NCBI GenBank assembly: GCA_049296855.1
Contig: JBAQTF010000010.1
Location: 22,094 to 86,093, forward strand
DNA length: 64,000 nt
Source: Minisyncoccia bacterium
GTDB taxonomy: Bacteria; Patescibacteriota; Minisyncoccia; Phycocordibacterales; DATDWN01
Direction of reading: 5' to 3'
The translations under genes and the position numbers were made by a program. The first letter of the stretch is position 1. Each line of letters starts with the position of its first letter. This document shows positions 3,624 through 38,727 of the stretch, piece after piece. The notes beneath the pieces are model-generated. The model ran no database searches. It was given only the letters and a program-made list of their open reading frames with translations, and was not told where the DNA came from.

Positions 3624-4259
3624 TTACTGAACTAATACCCCTATTTTGAAACCAGTAAGTTCACTAGCGGGACGAGCTTGTCCACCGTGCTGACCGTTAA
3701 AAGCATCTGAAGCATCAACCCCACACATGGACTTGATGGCAGAACTGCCACCAGGGTGTTGCCCTATCCAGGCTGTCAGGTCATACACACCACCGTTTAC
3801 TACTGAGTAACAACTTGCAGATGAGTTATGTGTAGCAACCTGAGCCAGTGTAAATGTTGTTGTACTAGGTATTGATGTGGGTACAGAAACAACCTGAGAA
3901 GGACTCGATCCCCTAAAATCATCATCACCTTCATTCTCGTCTTCGTCATCCCCATCATCATTACCGTCATGCTTTGATGATTGCCTTATTTCGGAATTAT
4001 CATTATCATCATCTGACTTAGGTTTTGAAACAGATGAAACTGGAATGTTGACCTGAGCTGATTGTATAGTGTTCGACTCCAGTTCTACATCAGACTGACT
4101 TTTAACTGTCTCAAGTCGTTCTGATTCCACCCCTCCACTCCCGACTTTTTCTGATTCCTGTTTATTATGAAATACTTCGGCTACTGTAATCCCAGTGACC
4201 GCAAACATAAGAAAGACCAGTATTCCTATAGGTAATTTTTTTAATGTGTTAATTAACAT
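3624..4259 (-). CDS. Membrane-anchored acidic-repeat protein with a C-terminal cytochrome b5-like heme-binding domain
   Basis: 211 aa. N-terminal TM; a D/E/N-rich tract (DDDNDNSE...DDGDDEDENEGDDD); C-terminal VYDLTAWIGQHPGG...DASDAFNGQHGG matches the cytochrome b5 HPGG signature. Confidence 0.6.
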   Translation of the reverse strand: MLINTLKKLPIGILVFLMFAVTGITVAEVFHNKQESEKVGSGGVESERLETVKSQSDVELESNTIQSAQVNIPVSSVSKPKSDDDNDNSEIRQSSKHDGNDDGDDEDENEGDDDFRGSSPSQVVSVPTSIPSTTTFTLAQVATHNSSASCYSVVNGGVYDLTAWIGQHPGGSSAIKSMCGVDASDAFNGQHGGQARPASELTGFKIGVLVQ

Positions 4260-4344
4260 TATGATTTATTTATTATATTAATATTGATGAACGCACGTCA
4301 GGTATAACGTACATCAATCGTATTTCTTACAGATTTAATTAAGA

Positions 4345-4370
4345 AAAAACACCCAATCGGGTGTTTTTTC
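4345..4370 (-). terminator. Rho-independent terminator
   Basis: ACACCC-aatc-GGGTGT hairpin flanked by an A-run and a T-run. It lies immediately downstream of the 4375..4590 gene on the minus strand. Confidence 0.7.
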
Positions 4371-4374
4371 TTAA

Positions 4375-4590
4375 TTAAATCTCTTTAGCCTCGGCAAAGT
4401 CTTTCTTAAACTTCTTATTCCACTCAATCATCATTGGGTCAGTTGGGGAAGCTTTCAATACGTCCGCGGCCATTTTCGGATGCTTCTCTTCGAGATGTTT
4501 CATTCCATTCTTCATCATCTCATCTTCTGTATTGCCCTTAATCTTTGTATTGCATGGTCCACCCATTTGTTTACATGTCATTATTTTCAT
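4375..4590 (-). CDS. Small DUF1059-like protein
   Basis: 71 aa, MKIMTCKQMGGPCNTKIKGNTEDEMMKNGMKHLEEKHP. The size and the C/H pattern resemble the DUF1059 family. Recalled from memory, not searched. Confidence 0.5.
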   Translation of the reverse strand: MKIMTCKQMGGPCNTKIKGNTEDEMMKNGMKHLEEKHPKMAADVLKASPTDPMMIEWNKKFKKDFAEAKEI

Positions 4591-4716: not shown

Positions 4717-6156
4717 TTAGTTAAGACATTGTAATGGATTTATGTGCAGAGTATTTGTGTGTTTCTCTGCTTCGAGTATAATTTTTTCCATCATTTTAAC
4801 TGCCTCTACTGGATATTTACCCTTAGCCGTCTCGTCTGAAAGCATGACAACGTCCGCCCCCTCTAACACCGCCTCCGAGACATCTGTAATTTCTGCTCTA
4901 GTTGGCTCGGGATTTTCTACCATTGAAAAAAGCATTTGTGTAGCTACTATAACGGTTTTGTTAGCTGTTTTACACTTATTTATGATATCACTTTGAATAT
5001 AAGGTATTTTCTCAGGTGAAACATCTTTCCCTAAATCTCCTCTAGCTATCATAACTGCGTCACTAGATGCTATGATTTCGTAAATATTATCCACAGCTGC
5101 TTGGCGTTCTATTTTGGCAATAATTTTTTGTTTGCCAGAGTTTTTAGATATTATTTCCCTACACATTTCTATTTCCTTTGCACCACCAACAAAAGATAGA
5201 GCAATATAATCCACCTCTTTTTCTACACAAAACTTGATAAGATCCTTGTCAATCTCTGTTAAACCAGAAAGTGCCGAATGATTGAATTCGTGTCCATCTT
5301 GATTCTGTATTCTAGGTCCAGGTAAATCGGCAATAATAGGGATTTTTTTACCAGCATCACTACTAGCTCCCCTTACTAAATCAAAATATTCTTCGACATC
5401 CCTTTTATTCATCCAAGAAAAATTAAATCTTATAGCATCAACCTTGTTTGATAGCATCCTTATTAACGTTTCTTTTTCTATCGAAGATGGGCCTATTGTG
5501 GCTAAGATTTGAGTTTTTGAAATATCATACGATCGAATATCTGATTCAGCTTCCTTTATCTCTTTTTTAATCATGTGACCATTACTATCTAAATAGTAAA
5601 CAAAAACTTTTCCAAAAGGAAATTCGACATCAGCGATATCTTCATCAGAAATATTTTCAATATATTTTACCAAAGTCCGCATCGAGTTACCGTGTCCCAC
5701 AACTAAAACATTTTTATTCTCATTTATTTTAGGTAGTATTTTTTCTAGAAAAAATGGTACTACTCTTTCATAAACCATTTTTAGTGTCTCGCCGTTTGGT
5801 ATAGGGTAATCCCATCCGCGACGAAGTTTTCGAAACTCCTCCCCTCCCAACATTTTTTCCATTTCACCCTTATCTTTTCCGGTATAGTCACCATAGTCTC
5901 TTTCACTCAAAGAAGCCGAATGTTCAGTCGGAACATTAAATATATTGCAGACATTGAGCATACAAGAAAGCGTCTCTATGCTACGAACCTGCATAGAAGC
6001 AAAAGCGTAATCGATTTTAATGTCTTTCATCAGAAGTCCCAGATCTTCTGATTTTTCAAAACCAAGATCTGTTAAATGTCGGTCACGAGTACCTGTCCAT
6101 TTTCCAAGTTTGTTCCATTCTGACTCCTGATGTCTCGCGATGATTAATTTCCCCAT
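4717..6156 (-). CDS. Fusion protein: 2,3-BPG-dependent phosphoglycerate mutase (N-terminal half) joined to a lid-less pyruvate kinase barrel (C-terminal half)
   Basis: The N-terminal about 200 aa carry the histidine-phosphatase motifs (IIARHQESEWN ... VVGHGNSMRTL). The C-terminal about 270 aa carry pyruvate kinase motifs (IIADLPGPRIQ, KIIAKIERQAAVDN, MIARGDLG, VIVATQMLFSMVENPEPTRAEITDVSEAVLEGADVVMLSDETAKGKYP). There is no PK B/lid domain and no PK C-terminal domain. Confidence 0.8.
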   Translation of the reverse strand: MGKLIIARHQESEWNKLGKWTGTRDRHLTDLGFEKSEDLGLLMKDIKIDYAFASMQVRSIETLSCMLNVCNIFNVPTEHSASLSERDYGDYTGKDKGEMEKMLGGEEFRKLRRGWDYPIPNGETLKMVYERVVPFFLEKILPKINENKNVLVVGHGNSMRTLVKYIENISDEDIADVEFPFGKVFVYYLDSNGHMIKKEIKEAESDIRSYDISKTQILATIGPSSIEKETLIRMLSNKVDAIRFNFSWMNKRDVEEYFDLVRGASSDAGKKIPIIADLPGPRIQNQDGHEFNHSALSGLTEIDKDLIKFCVEKEVDYIALSFVGGAKEIEMCREIISKNSGKQKIIAKIERQAAVDNIYEIIASSDAVMIARGDLGKDVSPEKIPYIQSDIINKCKTANKTVIVATQMLFSMVENPEPTRAEITDVSEAVLEGADVVMLSDETAKGKYPVEAVKMMEKIILEAEKHTNTLHINPLQCLN

Positions 6157-6157
6157 A

Positions 6158-7129
6158 TTATTTATTTACTCTATTTATAACTTCCTTTCCTTCAAAAAAA
6201 TTAATTATATTTTCCGCAACAATTTTAGACATTTCTTGTCTTGCTTCAATACTTGCTGATGCAATATGTGGAGTTAGTATCACATTTTGTAACTTAATTA
6301 AGTCTGGAGAAATTTTTGGTTCAAATTCGAAAACATCGAGCCCTGCACCGGCGATAACTCCCCCCATCAAGGCTTTGATAAGTGATTCTTCTTCTATTAC
6401 AGGGCCTCTAGATGTGTTGACCAGAAACGCTGTTTTTTTCATAAGACTTATTTTCTCCCAATTAATCAGATGTCTTGTGCTTTCCAAAAGTGGCACGTGA
6501 ATACTGACGACATCAGCTTCTTTCAAAAGTTCCTCAATTGATTTGTGATATTCTGCACCACACTCATTTTCAATCTGCTCATTTCTTAAAACATCTTGAT
6601 AAATAATTTTCATTCCTAAACCCTTCGCGTAGTAGCCAACTCGACTACCAATCCTACCAACGCCAATTAGGCCCAGAGTTTTTCCCAAAATATCTGTGCC
6701 TATAAAATTAGTCGGAGACCAGCCATTGTACTTACCATCCCGAACAAACTGGTCAGCTTCAACTATCCTAGCCGCCAGTGCTAATATTAAAGCTAGAGTG
6801 TGCTCCGCAACAGCCTCAGAAGTTAGTCTTGCTGGAGCGTTAGCGACAGTAATACCTCTTTTTTTAGCTTCATTTATATCTATGTTATCAAAACCAGTTG
6901 CATAATTAATATAAAACTTAACATTTGGTACAGCGTCAAAAACTTTTGAATCGATTTTGTCTGTAAGTAAAGTCACAACAGCGTCATAAGGTTTTTTATT
7001 CAAAAAATCTATAATTTCCTCCTGACTTGGAATAACATCCGATTGATTGATATCAACCTTGTATCCTTTATCTTCTAGCATTTTTATACCAACCTCATCT
7101 ATCTTTCTAGTTAAGAATATATTTTTCAT
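6158..7129 (-). CDS. D-isomer-specific 2-hydroxyacid dehydrogenase (glycerate / phosphoglycerate dehydrogenase-like)
   Basis: NAD-binding GLIGVGRIGSRVG; catalytic region HIASAS. The start is set at MKNIFLTRK (7129-7127) because the 80-aa upstream extension in the ORF track overlaps the next gene and is not protein-like. Confidence 0.8.
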   Translation of the reverse strand: MKNIFLTRKIDEVGIKMLEDKGYKVDINQSDVIPSQEEIIDFLNKKPYDAVVTLLTDKIDSKVFDAVPNVKFYINYATGFDNIDINEAKKRGITVANAPARLTSEAVAEHTLALILALAARIVEADQFVRDGKYNGWSPTNFIGTDILGKTLGLIGVGRIGSRVGYYAKGLGMKIIYQDVLRNEQIENECGAEYHKSIEELLKEADVVSIHVPLLESTRHLINWEKISLMKKTAFLVNTSRGPVIEEESLIKALMGGVIAGAGLDVFEFEPKISPDLIKLQNVILTPHIASASIEARQEMSKIVAENIINFFEGKEVINRVNK

Positions 7130-7277
7130 CTTCTCATTATAGCAAAACAAGCACTTTTTTTCTCCAGACTTATTTGGCGAAAAAACAAACTCTGAAACTT
7201 GGCTACTAGACCTAGATCTCTCACTCTTTGCGAGTAAATCATATGAAAATGCGCCTGGTCTTTTGAAAAAATATGTT

Positions 7278-7640
7278 TTATTTTTTGTCTCGATAAAAAT
7301 AAAACAGTGCGAGAGGTGCTGCCCAGTTCGCAAAACGTTCAACAAAATCCCAAATTGGTAAACCAACAAGTGGTCTTACAAGAGCAGTCCAGAAACCCCA
7401 AAATGCCATCCATAATAATAATGGTTTAATTGGTTTCCAGAGAATAATAATAGCTAATAAAATATCTACGACTCCTATAATTGTTATAAAAGTTGTGGCA
7501 GTTGCCGTATCAAATCCAGCTAGTTGCTCAGACCACTTTATCCAATCAGCTTTGCCCAAAATAGCAAAAACACCATGGCCTAAAAATTCTCCCGCAACAC
7601 CAACTCTCAAAATCCACTCCACTTTTTTTTCATTAGTCAT
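7278..7640 (-). CDS. Small integral membrane protein (DoxX-like)
   Basis: 120 aa with 3-4 predicted TM helices. The similarity to DoxX is weak. Confidence 0.45.
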   Translation of the reverse strand: MTNEKKVEWILRVGVAGEFLGHGVFAILGKADWIKWSEQLAGFDTATATTFITIIGVVDILLAIIILWKPIKPLLLWMAFWGFWTALVRPLVGLPIWDFVERFANWAAPLALFYFYRDKK

Positions 7641-7798: not shown

Positions 7799-8029
7799 TT
7801 AATGAAAATTAACCATTCTTTTTAGAGCATGTAATCTTGAGTGTGCACTGCGAGACATTATCCAGAGATTACTCTTTCTAAAATTTCTTTTATTGCCGTC
7901 TATATGGTGAACAACCATTCCCGCAAAAATTTTTCCTCCAACTTTGTTTCTAGCAACAGTTCTGTGAACCAAAGTTCGACTAATCTTCCATCTTGGGTAG
8001 CCCTTTTTGTCTATATAAAATCCTTTCAT
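7799..8029 (-). CDS. Small HNH endonuclease
   Basis: 76 aa. VVHHIDGNKRNFRKSNL matches the HNH motif. It sits next to tRNA-Gln. Confidence 0.65.
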   Translation of the reverse strand: MKGFYIDKKGYPRWKISRTLVHRTVARNKVGGKIFAGMVVHHIDGNKRNFRKSNLWIMSRSAHSRLHALKRMVNFH

Positions 8030-8071: not shown

Positions 8072-8142
8072 CTGCGGGACCTGGACTCGAACCAAGATAA
8101 ACGGTTCCAGAAACCGTTGTCCTACCATTAGACGATCCCGCA
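8072..8142 (-). tRNA. tRNA-Gln (anticodon CUG)
   Basis: Hand-folded cloverleaf: acceptor TGCGGGA/TCCCGCA, anticodon loop TTCTGGA, T-arm CTTGG-TTCGAGT-CCAGG. Confidence 0.75.
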
Positions 8143-38490: not shown

Positions 38491-38727
38491 TGGCGTTTCC
38501 TCTTTTTGTCATTTAAGCATATTTCATTTATAATCAGGTTACAACTGAATATACCGTTAGCCTAACCCTAGAAGGTAACTTCTAGGTATGGCACAAAATC
38601 GCACGATACAAGAAAACCCGTTATTAGGGCGTATCGTGCGTTATGCAGGGAAACTTGCATAGAGGTCTTCGGACCTTCCTAGTAGCGGGCTTTGTTGTGT
38701 CTGGCTACTAGTTATAACTTAACTAGT

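What the first reader, a model, noticed from the sequence alone, without database searches (positions are those of the whole stretch)
4717..6156. Gene fusion of phosphoglycerate mutase (dPGM) with a minimal, lid-less pyruvate kinase
One ORF encodes an N-terminal histidine-phosphatase dPGM (RHxxSEWN ... GHGNS) and a C-terminal pyruvate kinase TIM barrel with all signature motifs but no B (lid) domain and no C-terminal allosteric domain. The two enzymes catalyse glycolytic steps 8 and 10; enolase lies between them. The immediate neighbour is a D-2-hydroxyacid (glycerate/3-PG) dehydrogenase. To my knowledge a PGM-PK fusion is not a described arrangement. It may reflect channelling in a streamlined fermentative organism, or a PK domain repurposed to another phosphotransfer role.
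Basis: partly seen in the sequence, partly recalled or inferred. Interest (0 to 1): 0.6.

Follow-up and report, generated by a model that had tools for sequence, protein, structure and literature searches.

The report
Phosphoglycerate mutase fused to lid-less pyruvate kinase
A tiny-celled (CPR/Parcubacteria) bacterium encodes one protein joining phosphoglycerate mutase to a stripped-down pyruvate kinase that lacks its active-site lid and regulatory domain; it belongs to a large, apparently undescribed family of "mini" pyruvate kinases that sit beside or are fused to neighbouring glycolytic enzymes.

Summary
Window 4717-6156 (minus strand) is one 479-aa ORF: a short-form cofactor-dependent phosphoglycerate mutase (res 1-200), a 14-residue flexible linker, and a pyruvate-kinase A-domain TIM barrel (res 215-465). 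In the barrel a 10-residue hairpin replaces the ~100-residue lid (B domain), and the C domain is absent. It is not a frameshift: 120 homologues keep both halves with all catalytic residues essentially invariant. The main result lies beyond the fusion. The PK half belongs to a large Patescibacteria (CPR) clade of lid-less "mini-PKs". These occur alone (~265 aa, more than 120 clusters), fused to dPGM in both orders, fused to enolase, to glycerate kinase, or to both. They are almost always in operons with enolase and a D-2-hydroxyacid dehydrogenase. A 69%-identical relative has separate dPGM and mini-PK genes with an ATGA overlap, so fusion is shallow and recurrent. The clade has its own signature: lid-hinge Arg119 to Gln, His77 to Trp, Arg at 117, and an invariant His in the stub. 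Most likely it is a non-allosteric, K+-independent PK for lower glycolysis. A PEP-dependent dPGM-priming role (precedent: PKM2 on PGAM1) is not excluded. I found no literature description.

The parts
4717..6156 (-). Complete ORF (479 aa plus stop) of the dPGM / mini-PK fusion protein
   Evidence: The identical protein P0001 is annotated 'MAG: pyruvate kinase [Minisyncoccia bacterium]'.
5557..6156 (-). dPGM domain, res 1-200. Short, S. pombe-like cofactor-dependent phosphoglycerate mutase with R8, H9, S12, N15, R58, E85, Y88, K96, R113, H155, N157.
   Evidence: TIGR01258 162 bits (cutoff 81.7); end-to-end match to S. pombe PGM 1FZT (res 4-200 to 10-208, 129 bits); catalytic residues invariant in 119-120 of 120 fused homologues.
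5515..5556 (-). Inter-domain linker, res 201-214 (KEAESDIRSYDISK). Variable in sequence and length among homologues.
   Evidence: pLDDT below 50 at res 205-209, pTM 0.61 despite mean pLDDT 92; poorly conserved, gapped columns.
4762..5514 (-). Mini-PK: pyruvate-kinase A-domain TIM barrel, res 215-465, with T220, R243, N245, D277, R282, K348, E350, D374, T406, S440, E442. No B domain and no C domain.
5284..5313 (-). Stub beta-hairpin, res 282-291 (RIQNQDGHEF), that replaces the ~100-residue lid. Carries Arg at position 117 (R282), Gln at position 119 (Q284) and the clade-invariant His (H289).
   Evidence: DSSP strands 282-285 and 288-291; alignment against lid-bearing PKs; a His within 8 residues after position 119 in 131/133 lid-less vs 6/69 canonical sequences. 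H289 in 120/120.
4720..4761 (-). C-terminal tail after the barrel, res 466-479 (HTNTLHINPLQCLN). Contains the family-conserved 'H..x..N-x-L' ending found where canonical PKs continue into the C domain.
   Evidence: consensus ...EAExHxxxxxxxNxL; H466 at least 90% conserved.
6158..7129 (-). Upstream operon partner: 323-aa D-2-hydroxyacid dehydrogenase of the GyaR (glyoxylate/hydroxypyruvate reductase)-like subfamily. Its stop codon lies 1 nt before the fusion's ATG.
   Evidence: PRK13243 363 bits, below cutoff 455; Pyrococcus glyoxylate reductase 2DBQ, 298 bits. The same gene class is adjacent in relatives.
4335..4378 (.). Palindromic 20-bp-stem hairpin with T-runs: the only strong terminator-like element downstream of the fusion, lying after the small DUF1059 gene (4375-4590). 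Possible end of the transcription unit.
   Evidence: This is a consensus scan only; the terminator count in the region was 3 against 1.6 +/- 1.4 in shuffles.

Best explanation
The ORF encodes a genuine bifunctional lower-glycolysis enzyme of a Paceibacterota (Parcubacteria, CPR) bacterium. The N-terminal domain is an active short-form cofactor-dependent phosphoglycerate mutase (3-PG to 2-PG). The C-terminal domain is a 'mini-PK', an A-domain-only pyruvate kinase that converts PEP to pyruvate. It most likely still passes the phosphoryl group to ADP/NDP, without a closing lid, without allosteric control (no C domain) and without a K+ requirement (Arg at position 117). Enolase, the step in between, is encoded elsewhere in this genome but is the adjacent gene in relatives. 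The upstream 2-hydroxyacid dehydrogenase is co-transcribed and handles a 2-oxoacid linked to the pathway (pyruvate to D-lactate, or hydroxypyruvate to D-glycerate). The fusion arose by loss of the ATGA stop/start overlap between adjacent dPGM and mini-PK genes. It is one of many interchangeable architectures of the same module, so its benefit is probably equimolar co-expression and proximity rather than an obligatory inter-domain mechanism. Shown here: the domain identities, retention of catalytic residues, loss of the lid and C domain, the family signature, the operon and fusion partners, and the recurrence. Inferred: catalytic activity, ADP as acceptor, K+ independence, and compensation of lost lid contacts by W248, H289, R282 and D/E441.
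For: Both halves are under strong purifying selection. In 120 fused homologues the dPGM residues R8, H9, N15, R58, E85, Y88, R113, H155, N157 and the PK residues R243, N245, D277, K348, E350, D374, T406, S440, E442 are 99-100% conserved. The dPGM half matches the active short S. pombe enzyme end to end. The PK half is a complete A barrel (rmsd 1.0 A over 257 columns; pLDDT 92).

Gene context places mini-PK at the PEP-to-pyruvate step. Enolase is directly adjacent in L006, L008, L009, L011, L014, L016, L094 and L095. Rosetta-stone fusions exist: mini-PK with enolase (P0124), glycerate kinase with mini-PK (P0128), and glycerate kinase with enolase and mini-PK (P0156). In the glycerate-kinase versions, only a PK that regenerates ATP balances the ATP spent by the kinase (inference).

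The fusion is facultative. L014 has two genes with an ATGA overlap, both domain orders exist, stand-alone forms exist, and fusion types are interspersed in a crude tree. AF2 gives a flexible linker and pTM 0.61, so no fixed interface is predicted.

A lid-less PK can work. [quoted passage not shown] 2020; title only, cited in PMC10176505). K+-independent M. tuberculosis PK reaches its active state without lid movement (PMC8835810). The nearest lid-bearing relatives are of the K+-independent type, DLxGP[K/R]xR. The K+ ligand Ser76 (S247) is not conserved (S 84, F 23, A 7, Y 5 of 120). H77, which bounds the adenine pocket, is replaced by Trp in 114/120, which is compatible with continued adenine stacking.
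Against: All three lid residues known to contact the nucleotide are gone (R119 to the beta-phosphate, K206 to the ribose, D177 to the Mg-ATP water; PMC8835810). R119 is systematically Gln (113/133, against Arg in 68/69 lid-bearing relatives). The protein falls below every curated NCBIfam PK cutoff. No member has been assayed. I could not test whether these genomes lack a canonical PK: the window (64 kb) has no second PK motif, but that is under a tenth of a genome. The role of the dehydrogenase is unresolved. By sequence it is closest to glyoxylate/hydroxypyruvate reductases, not D-LDH, and a different 2-Hacid_dh subfamily accompanies mini-PK in L013 and L016.
Confidence: 0.68

Rival explanations
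1. The mini-PK domain is, solely or additionally, a PEP-dependent histidine kinase for the dPGM domain. With no lid, its open active site accepts the dPGM catalytic His9 and transfers the phosphoryl group of PEP to it, releasing pyruvate. This primes the mutase without a free 2,3-bisphosphoglycerate pool.
For: There is a direct experimental precedent. Human PKM2 phosphorylates PGAM1 His11 from PEP. Monomer and dimer do so but the tetramer does not, the catalytic-Lys mutant K270M is inactive, and pyruvate is produced (PMC11183095; it builds on Vander Heiden 2010, cited there). Mini-PK lacks the C domain that forms the tetramer interface and lacks the nucleotide-contacting lid residues. In the Paceibacteria clade it is fused to, or directly next to, a dPGM. 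H9 and K348 are invariant.
Against: Mini-PKs also occur with no dPGM within +/-10 kb (L015, L016) or within +/-6 kb (L094), and in glycerate-kinase/enolase operons and fusions where 2-PG is made without a mutase. So priming cannot be the family's general function. Both domain orders and unfused genes work, and AF2 predicts no fixed interface. Stoichiometric priming would not explain why all pyruvate-forming residues, including the proton-donor Thr, are conserved in a pathway that needs catalytic flux from PEP to pyruvate.
Confidence: 0.14
2. The lid-less barrel keeps PEP/pyruvate chemistry but uses no nucleotide. It could be a PEP phosphatase, use a small acceptor (Pi, AMP, a sugar or acid), or act as an oxaloacetate decarboxylase (a known side reaction of PK; from my own knowledge).
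For: Every lid-borne nucleotide contact is lost, R119 is systematically Gln, and an unusual invariant His sits in the stub.
Against: A PEP phosphatase would waste one of the very few ATP-yielding steps available to an obligate fermenter, and would make the glycerate kinase-enolase-mini-PK route a net ATP sink (inference). The phosphate-binding residues R243 and K348 are invariant, which argues against a pure decarboxylase. The adenine-pocket position is kept aromatic (W/Y/F in 120/120).
Confidence: 0.1
3. Artefact: two adjacent genes joined by a sequencing or assembly frameshift, or a chimeric contig.
For: A close relative (L014) does have two separate genes overlapping by 4 nt, so a single indel could create the fusion.
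Against: The identical 479-aa protein occurs on three contigs, among them an NCBI MAG contig and a Logan run assembly. More than 90 PGM-PK and 20 PK-PGM proteins from many samples, 51-76% identical, are in frame. The linker is a real, variable peptide. GC and GC3 are uniform.
Confidence: 0.01

Closest known systems
Canonical bacterial pyruvate kinase, K+-independent type (e.g. M. tuberculosis PK 5WS8/5WS9; E. coli PykF 1PKY)
   Same: Homologous A-domain TIM barrel (40-50% identity over the barrel). Same PEP/Mg2+ catalytic set (R72, N74, D112, K269, E271, D295, T327, S361, E363 in rabbit M1 numbering). Leu at 113 and a positive residue at 117, as in K+-independent PKs (PMC8835810).
   Different: No B/lid domain (a 10-residue hairpin instead) and no C domain. 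R119 to Gln, H77 to Trp, G362 to Asp/Glu, Pro rather than Gln at 114, Arg rather than Lys at 117, and an invariant stub His. Below the NCBIfam PK cutoffs.
Engineered lid-deleted E. coli PykF (Sugrue et al. 2020, Eur Biophys J 49:761; known to me by title only, as cited in PMC10176505)
   Same: PK without its B domain. [quoted passage not shown]
   Different: That is a laboratory construct retaining the C domain and the native hinge residues. Here the loss is natural, ancient and family-wide, with apparent compensatory substitutions, and the C domain is gone as well.
Short A+B-only pyruvate kinases of ~340 aa (NCBIfam PRK06739 type; e.g. P0134, P0145, and the Falkowbacteria PK in L093)
   Same: No C domain. 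They are among the nearest lid-bearing relatives by score and in the crude tree.
   Different: They keep the full B domain, R119 and H77.
Schizosaccharomyces pombe phosphoglycerate mutase (PDB 1FZT), the short dPGM form
   Same: End-to-end alignment (res 4-200 to 10-208, 129 bits), the same ~25-residue deletion relative to 250-aa dPGMs, and the full catalytic set.
   Different: The S. pombe enzyme is a free-standing protein. Here it is covalently linked to a PK barrel.
Human PKM2-PGAM1 histidine-kinase relationship (PMC11183095)
   Same: A PK and a dPGM that interact physically. PEP is the phosphoryl donor to the mutase's catalytic His, and the non-tetrameric PK is favoured.
   Different: It is a regulated, non-covalent interaction of a full-length PK in tumour cells. 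There is no evidence here that the CPR proteins carry out this transfer.
Other glycolytic enzyme fusions (TPI-GAPDH in stramenopiles, PMC3527533; PGK-TPI in Thermotoga, from my own knowledge)
   Same: Covalent linkage of enzymes of one pathway.
   Different: Those link consecutive steps. dPGM and PK are steps 8 and 10, with enolase between them. In this family enolase itself is sometimes the fused partner.

Membership tests
Pyruvate kinase (EC 2.7.1.40; Pfam PF00224, NCBIfam TIGR01064) | A-domain (beta/alpha)8 barrel homologous to PK | tested here: met
   PF00224 239 bits (cutoff 30). Foldseek to PK A domains at rmsd 1.0 A over 257 columns.
Pyruvate kinase (EC 2.7.1.40; Pfam PF00224, NCBIfam TIGR01064) | PEP/Mg2+ catalytic residues (rabbit M1 R72, N74, D112, K269, E271, D295, T327, S361, E363) | tested here: met
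   R243, N245, D277, K348, E350, D374, T406, S440, E442 are present and 99-100% conserved in 120 homologues. The mapping to rabbit numbering is by motif, partly from my own knowledge and partly from PMC8835810.
Pyruvate kinase (EC 2.7.1.40; Pfam PF00224, NCBIfam TIGR01064) | B (lid) domain inserted in the barrel, carrying nucleotide contacts R119, D177 and K206 | tested here: not met
   The B-domain part of the PF00224 profile is unmatched. A 10-residue hairpin takes its place. Position 119 is Gln.
Pyruvate kinase (EC 2.7.1.40; Pfam PF00224, NCBIfam TIGR01064) | C-terminal alpha/beta (PK_C) domain. Common but not universal. | tested here: not met
   No PF02887 hit. The protein ends 14 residues after the barrel.
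Pyruvate kinase (EC 2.7.1.40; Pfam PF00224, NCBIfam TIGR01064) | Score above the curated equivalog cutoff | tested here: not met
   TIGR01064 295.8 vs 306.4; PRK05826 304.9 vs 432.
Pyruvate kinase (EC 2.7.1.40; Pfam PF00224, NCBIfam TIGR01064) | Catalyses PEP + ADP to pyruvate + ATP | not testable with these tools
   Needs an enzyme assay. The context evidence (enolase adjacency and fusions) supports the PEP-to-pyruvate step only.
K+-independent PK subgroup (signature L113/Q114/K117/(L,I,V)120; PMC8835810) | Leu113 and a positively charged residue at 117 | tested here: inconclusive
   L278 (L in 122/133). Position 117 is Arg (130/133) rather than Lys. Position 114 is Pro rather than Gln. Position 120 lies in the stub and is not comparable. 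The K+ ligand S76 is not conserved.
Cofactor-dependent phosphoglycerate mutase (dPGM; NCBIfam TIGR01258, Pfam PF00300 branch 1) | Score above the curated cutoff, and best matches are dPGMs rather than other His phosphatases | tested here: met
   TIGR01258 162 bits (cutoff 81.7). The other His-phosphatase models (cobC, PspA, SixA-like) score 67 bits or less. The PDB top hits are all PGM/BPGM.
Cofactor-dependent phosphoglycerate mutase (dPGM; NCBIfam TIGR01258, Pfam PF00300 branch 1) | Catalytic set: RHG/xES-WN phospho-His motif, second His in HGNS, Glu acid/base, and phosphate-binding Arg/Asn/Lys | tested here: met
   R8, H9, S12, N15, R58, E85, Y88, K96, R113, H155, N157 are present and conserved in 119-120 of 120.
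Cofactor-dependent phosphoglycerate mutase (dPGM; NCBIfam TIGR01258, Pfam PF00300 branch 1) | 2,3-BPG-dependent interconversion of 3-PG and 2-PG | not testable with these tools
   Needs an assay.
PEP-utilising His-phosphotransfer enzymes (Enzyme I / PPDK / PEP synthase) | Swivelling PEP-utilizer phospho-His domain and the PEP-utilizers_C barrel | tested here: not met
   No such Pfam domains were found, only PK, His_Phos_1 and a sub-threshold HpcH_HpaI hit. The resemblance is mechanistic analogy only.

The most novel reading that the evidence does not exclude
The lid-less mini-PK is a hard-wired bacterial counterpart of the PKM2-to-PGAM1 histidine kinase. Its open active site transfers phosphate from PEP directly to the catalytic His9 of the fused or adjacent dPGM, with the invariant stub His289 possibly assisting. 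This makes the mutase independent of a free 2,3-BPG pool in ultra-small cells, while the same barrel also serves as the cell's only, minimal pyruvate kinase.
Probability: 0.13. Interest if true: 0.85.

Novelty: new variant of a known kind. Interest (0 to 1): 0.6.

Why it matters
(1) It defines a natural minimal pyruvate kinase: a ~260-residue barrel without the lid that textbooks treat as part of the active site, and without the allosteric domain. That is a natural test of what PK chemistry actually requires, and a compact scaffold for enzymology and engineering.

(2) It bears on CPR/Patescibacteria metabolism. Surveys report PK in only about a third of CPR genomes and PGM 'absent' in some Parcubacteria clades, possibly because divergent forms fall below HMM thresholds (PMC7304191). 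This protein does fall below the curated NCBIfam PK cutoffs. Fused or mini forms may therefore be miscounted and lower glycolysis under-called.

(3) The set of interchangeable fusions (dPGM, enolase, glycerate kinase, mini-PK) is a clean Rosetta-stone case for a lower-glycolysis metabolon in ultra-small cells.

(4) The covalent PK-dPGM link gives an independent, testable angle on the debated PEP-dependent phosphorylation of PGAM.

Tried and rejected
Frameshift or chimera: rejected.

Dead PK pseudo-domain: rejected, because all catalytic residues are invariant.

N-terminal half being a phosphoserine, ribazole or other phosphatase rather than dPGM: rejected on scores (162 bits vs 67 or less) and PDB hits.

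Enzyme I/PPDK-like membership: rejected, no PEP-utilizer domains.

'One constant dehydrogenase orthologue, therefore it acts on pyruvate': weakened after one search showed two different 2-Hacid_dh subfamilies next to mini-PK genes. Left open.

Looking for other glycolytic genes in the window by motif: none found (no enolase, PGK, GAPDH, TPI, second PK or PPDK motif). This is uninformative for the whole genome.

Sugrue et al. 2020 full text: not held, so only the title is used.

AFDB fold search to compare inter-domain orientation: library unavailable.

Promoter/terminator scan: promoter-like sites were not above shuffles (17 vs 14.1 +/- 3.3), so no promoter is claimed.

NJ tree: no support values, and one stand-alone sequence (P0129) falls among lid-bearing PKs. 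It is used only as consistent evidence, not as proof of a single lid loss.
Full report
OBSERVATION. Window 4717..6156 holds one ORF on the minus strand (479 aa, ATG start). Pfam finds His_Phos_1 over residues 4-193. It also finds the pyruvate-kinase barrel PF00224 in two stretches; the best-scoring one covers profile positions 171-328, and the PDB alignments show the other at residues ~212-284, matching the barrel's N-terminal part. The part of the profile that holds the B domain is therefore unmatched, and there is no PK_C hit. NCBIfam puts the N-terminal half in the dPGM subfamily (TIGR01258, 162 bits, cutoff 81.7). It matches every PK model but below cutoff (TIGR01064 295.8 vs 306.4).

NOT AN ARTEFACT. 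The identical protein is on three contigs, among them an NCBI MAG contig (180,751 bp, 'Minisyncoccia bacterium') and a Logan run assembly. More than 120 clusters (90% identity) of homologues, down to 51% identity, carry both Pfam domains. All named sources are Parcubacteria, Paceibacterota, Nomurabacteria, Zambryskibacteria or Patescibacteria MAGs, apart from one partial protein labelled Nitrospira sp.. GC and GC3 are uniform across the two halves and the upstream gene. In 120 fused homologues the catalytic residues of both halves are 99-100% conserved. This also rules out a decaying or dead domain.

ANATOMY. Residues 1-200 align end to end with the short S. pombe dPGM (1FZT). They carry R8, H9, S12, N15, R58, E85, Y88, K96, R113, H155 and N157. 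Residues 201-214 are a variable linker; AF2 gives pLDDT below 50 at 205-209 and pTM 0.61 despite mean pLDDT 92, so no fixed inter-domain geometry is predicted. Residues 215-465 are a complete PK A barrel: foldseek gives 257 columns at 1.0 A rmsd and 40% identity to Leishmania PK chains. Where lid-bearing PKs leave the barrel for about 100 residues of B domain, this protein has a 10-residue beta-hairpin, RIQNQDGHEF (282-291). A 14-residue tail with a family-conserved H...N-x-L ending replaces the C domain.

THE PK HALF BELONGS TO A LARGE LID-LESS CLADE. An exhaustive phmmer search of 1.84 billion representatives with the PK half alone gave three kinds of hit. There were stand-alone proteins of 259-269 aa matched in one stretch. 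There were other multidomain proteins. Only then came lid-bearing PKs, matched in two stretches. Pfam on the multidomain hits shows mini-PK with enolase (P0124, 679 aa), DUF4147+MOFRL (glycerate-kinase type) with mini-PK (P0128, 690 aa), and glycerate kinase with enolase and mini-PK (P0156, 1092 aa). A profile search with stand-alone members saturated at 120 clusters of 262-271 aa, PF00224 only. Every one that carries an organism name is from Paceibacterota, Parcubacteria or Patescibacteria. A Saccharibacteria MAG also has one (L016).

The dPGM fusion exists in both orders: 90 PGM-PK and 20 PK-PGM among the sequences held. Compared with 69 of the nearest lid-bearing PKs, the 133 lid-less sequences share a distinct signature:
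- Position 117 (rabbit M1 numbering) is Arg in 130/133.
- Position 119 is Gln in 113/133 and Arg in only 2, against Arg in 68/69 lid-bearing PKs.
- Position 77 is Trp in 99/111, against His in 63/66.
- Position 362 is Asp/Glu in 129/132.
- A His lies within 8 residues after position 119 in 131/133, against 6/69.

In the AF2 hairpin, strands 282-285 and 288-291 put H289 directly across from Q284 and on the same face as R282. That is the face carrying positions 117 and 119, which in canonical PKs point into the active site. This is an inference from the DSSP register. A crude NJ tree without support values groups the lid-less sequences together except one, and intersperses the fusion types.

GENE CONTEXT. 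In the window, a 323-aa D-2-hydroxyacid dehydrogenase ends 1 nt before the fusion's ATG. No enolase motif occurs in the 64 kb. The relatives read as follows:
- 2-Hacid_dh, PGM-PK, enolase (L006, L008).
- Enolase overlapping PK-PGM (L009).
- PK-PGM, 2-Hacid_dh (L003).
- Separate dPGM, mini-PK, enolase (L011).
- dPGM, then a mini-PK-enolase fusion (L012).
- Enolase, mini-PK, 2-Hacid_dh (L094).
- 2-Hacid_dh, glycerate kinase, a 143-aa gene, enolase, mini-PK (L095).
- 2-Hacid_dh overlapping the triple fusion (L013).
- L014, 69% identical to the window protein: 2-Hacid_dh, dPGM (210 aa), mini-PK (269 aa), enolase, with dPGM and mini-PK overlapping by ATGA.

The module is therefore a 2-PG supplier (dPGM or glycerate kinase), enolase, mini-PK and a 2-hydroxyacid dehydrogenase. 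Fusions are made and unmade easily; a single indel at an ATGA overlap would be enough.

The dehydrogenase is GyaR-like in the Paceibacteria loci (309-363 bits to PRK13243; the closest structure is Pyrococcus glyoxylate reductase 2DBQ). In L013 and L016 it is a different, PGDH/VanH-like subfamily. Its substrate (pyruvate, hydroxypyruvate or glyoxylate) cannot be decided from sequence.

MECHANISM. The best-supported reading is a bifunctional lower-glycolysis enzyme: an active dPGM plus a non-allosteric, probably K+-independent pyruvate kinase that works without lid closure. Support comes from several directions:
- Complete retention of the PEP/Mg/proton-transfer residues.
- The position of mini-PK next to, or fused with, enolase.
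- ATP balance in the glycerate-kinase versions (inference).
- The finding that K+-independent M. tuberculosis PK reaches its active state without lid movement (PMC8835810).
- The K+-independent-type signature (L113, positive residue at 117) together with loss of the K+ ligand Ser76 in many members.

Against it, the three lid residues that contact the nucleotide (R119, K206, D177) are all absent, no member has been assayed, and I could not establish that these genomes lack a full-length PK. I propose, as inference only, that W248 (adenine stacking), H289 and R282 (phosphates) and D/E441 (Mg-water) compensate for the lost contacts.

RIVALS. The most interesting rival is that the open barrel phosphorylates the mutase's His9 from PEP. 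Human PKM2 does exactly this to PGAM1 His11. The reaction is PEP-dependent, K270-dependent and favoured by the non-tetrameric enzyme (PMC11183095). The covalent or adjacent pairing with dPGM, and the loss of the C domain and nucleotide contacts, fit this reading. However, mini-PKs also occur with no dPGM nearby and in glycerate-kinase operons where 2-PG needs no mutase. Priming therefore cannot be the family's general role, and at most it is an added activity (about 0.14). A nucleotide-independent PEP phosphatase, another acceptor, or oxaloacetate decarboxylase activity is possible but energetically unattractive (about 0.1). Artefact is excluded (about 0.01).

COMPARISON AND NOVELTY. The protein works like a PK and is homologous to PK. 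It fails three features of the canonical family (lid, lid-borne nucleotide contacts, curated equivalog score) and lacks the common C domain. I therefore class it as a new variant of a known kind, not an ordinary member. The dPGM half is an ordinary short-form dPGM. Sequences of this architecture have been public for years (for example, RIFCSP-named Nomurabacteria and Zambryskibacteria entries), auto-named 'pyruvate kinase', 'phosphoglycerate mutase' or 'hypothetical'. Eight full-text searches found no description of a PGM-PK fusion or of natural lid-less PKs. The main CPR metabolism survey notes patchy PK and PGM and possible sub-threshold divergent forms without mentioning this. Absence from the held library is not proof of absence from the literature.

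VERDICT. This is a real, conserved and mechanistically intriguing feature. Interest 0.6: it would surprise PK enzymologists, it is useful for CPR metabolic reconstruction, and it gives a testable link to the PK-PGAM phosphotransfer question. The function still rests on inference.

Noticed in passing
window 38559-38677 (+): Strong match to the Rfam LOOT RNA motif (RF03000, 83.7 bits vs gathering score 46.4, full-length model). Its function and context were not examined.
   Followed up: no
window 3624-4259 (-): A 211-aa protein with an N-terminal hydrophobic segment, a long Asp/Glu/Asn/Ser-rich low-complexity stretch and a C-terminal cytochrome b5-like heme/steroid-binding domain (PF00173, 64 bits). 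This is an unexpected domain for a presumed obligate fermenter of the CPR.
   Followed up: no
window 4335-4378: A perfect 20-bp-stem palindromic hairpin with flanking A/T runs between the DUF1059 gene and the Cyt-b5 gene. It looks like a bidirectional terminator.
   Followed up: partly
window 7799-8029 (-) and 8072-8142 (-): A small 76-aa HNH_3 endonuclease-like ORF lies immediately beside a tRNA gene, between the CTP synthase gene and the DoxX-like/dehydrogenase genes. It may be a mobile-element remnant.
   Followed up: no
window 6158-7369 (-): The mechanical ORF list extends the dehydrogenase to a TTG at 7369 (403 aa), overlapping the 120-aa DoxX-like ORF (7278-7640). The real start is the ATG at 7129 (323 aa), as called in the public record and as seen in all orthologues.
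   Followed up: yes
P0123 (1051 aa) and P0132 (691 aa): Other unusual PK architectures turned up. One is a full-length PK followed by further PK-like sequence and a C-terminal adenylate kinase domain (P0123). The other is a full lid-bearing PK followed by a second, lid-less PK barrel in the same protein (P0132).
   Followed up: no
P0117 (484 aa PGM-PK homologue): This is the only one of 120 fused proteins in which the second catalytic His of the dPGM half (H155 in window numbering) is Ser (SSGN instead of SHGN). It could be a sequencing error or a lineage with an altered mutase.
   Followed up: partly
L013 1281-2282 and L016 6479-7507: The 2-hydroxyacid dehydrogenases next to the triple fusion and next to the Saccharibacteria mini-PK belong to a different subfamily (best NCBIfam hits PGDH and VanH-type D-lactate dehydrogenase, ~190-218 bits) from the GyaR-like enzyme in the window. 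Two dehydrogenase lineages have therefore been recruited to the same module.
   Followed up: partly
L095 11260-12285: A Cas1 gene lies about 4.5 kb downstream of a mini-PK operon in a Patescibacteria MAG contig. It is unrelated to the finding and was not examined.
   Followed up: no
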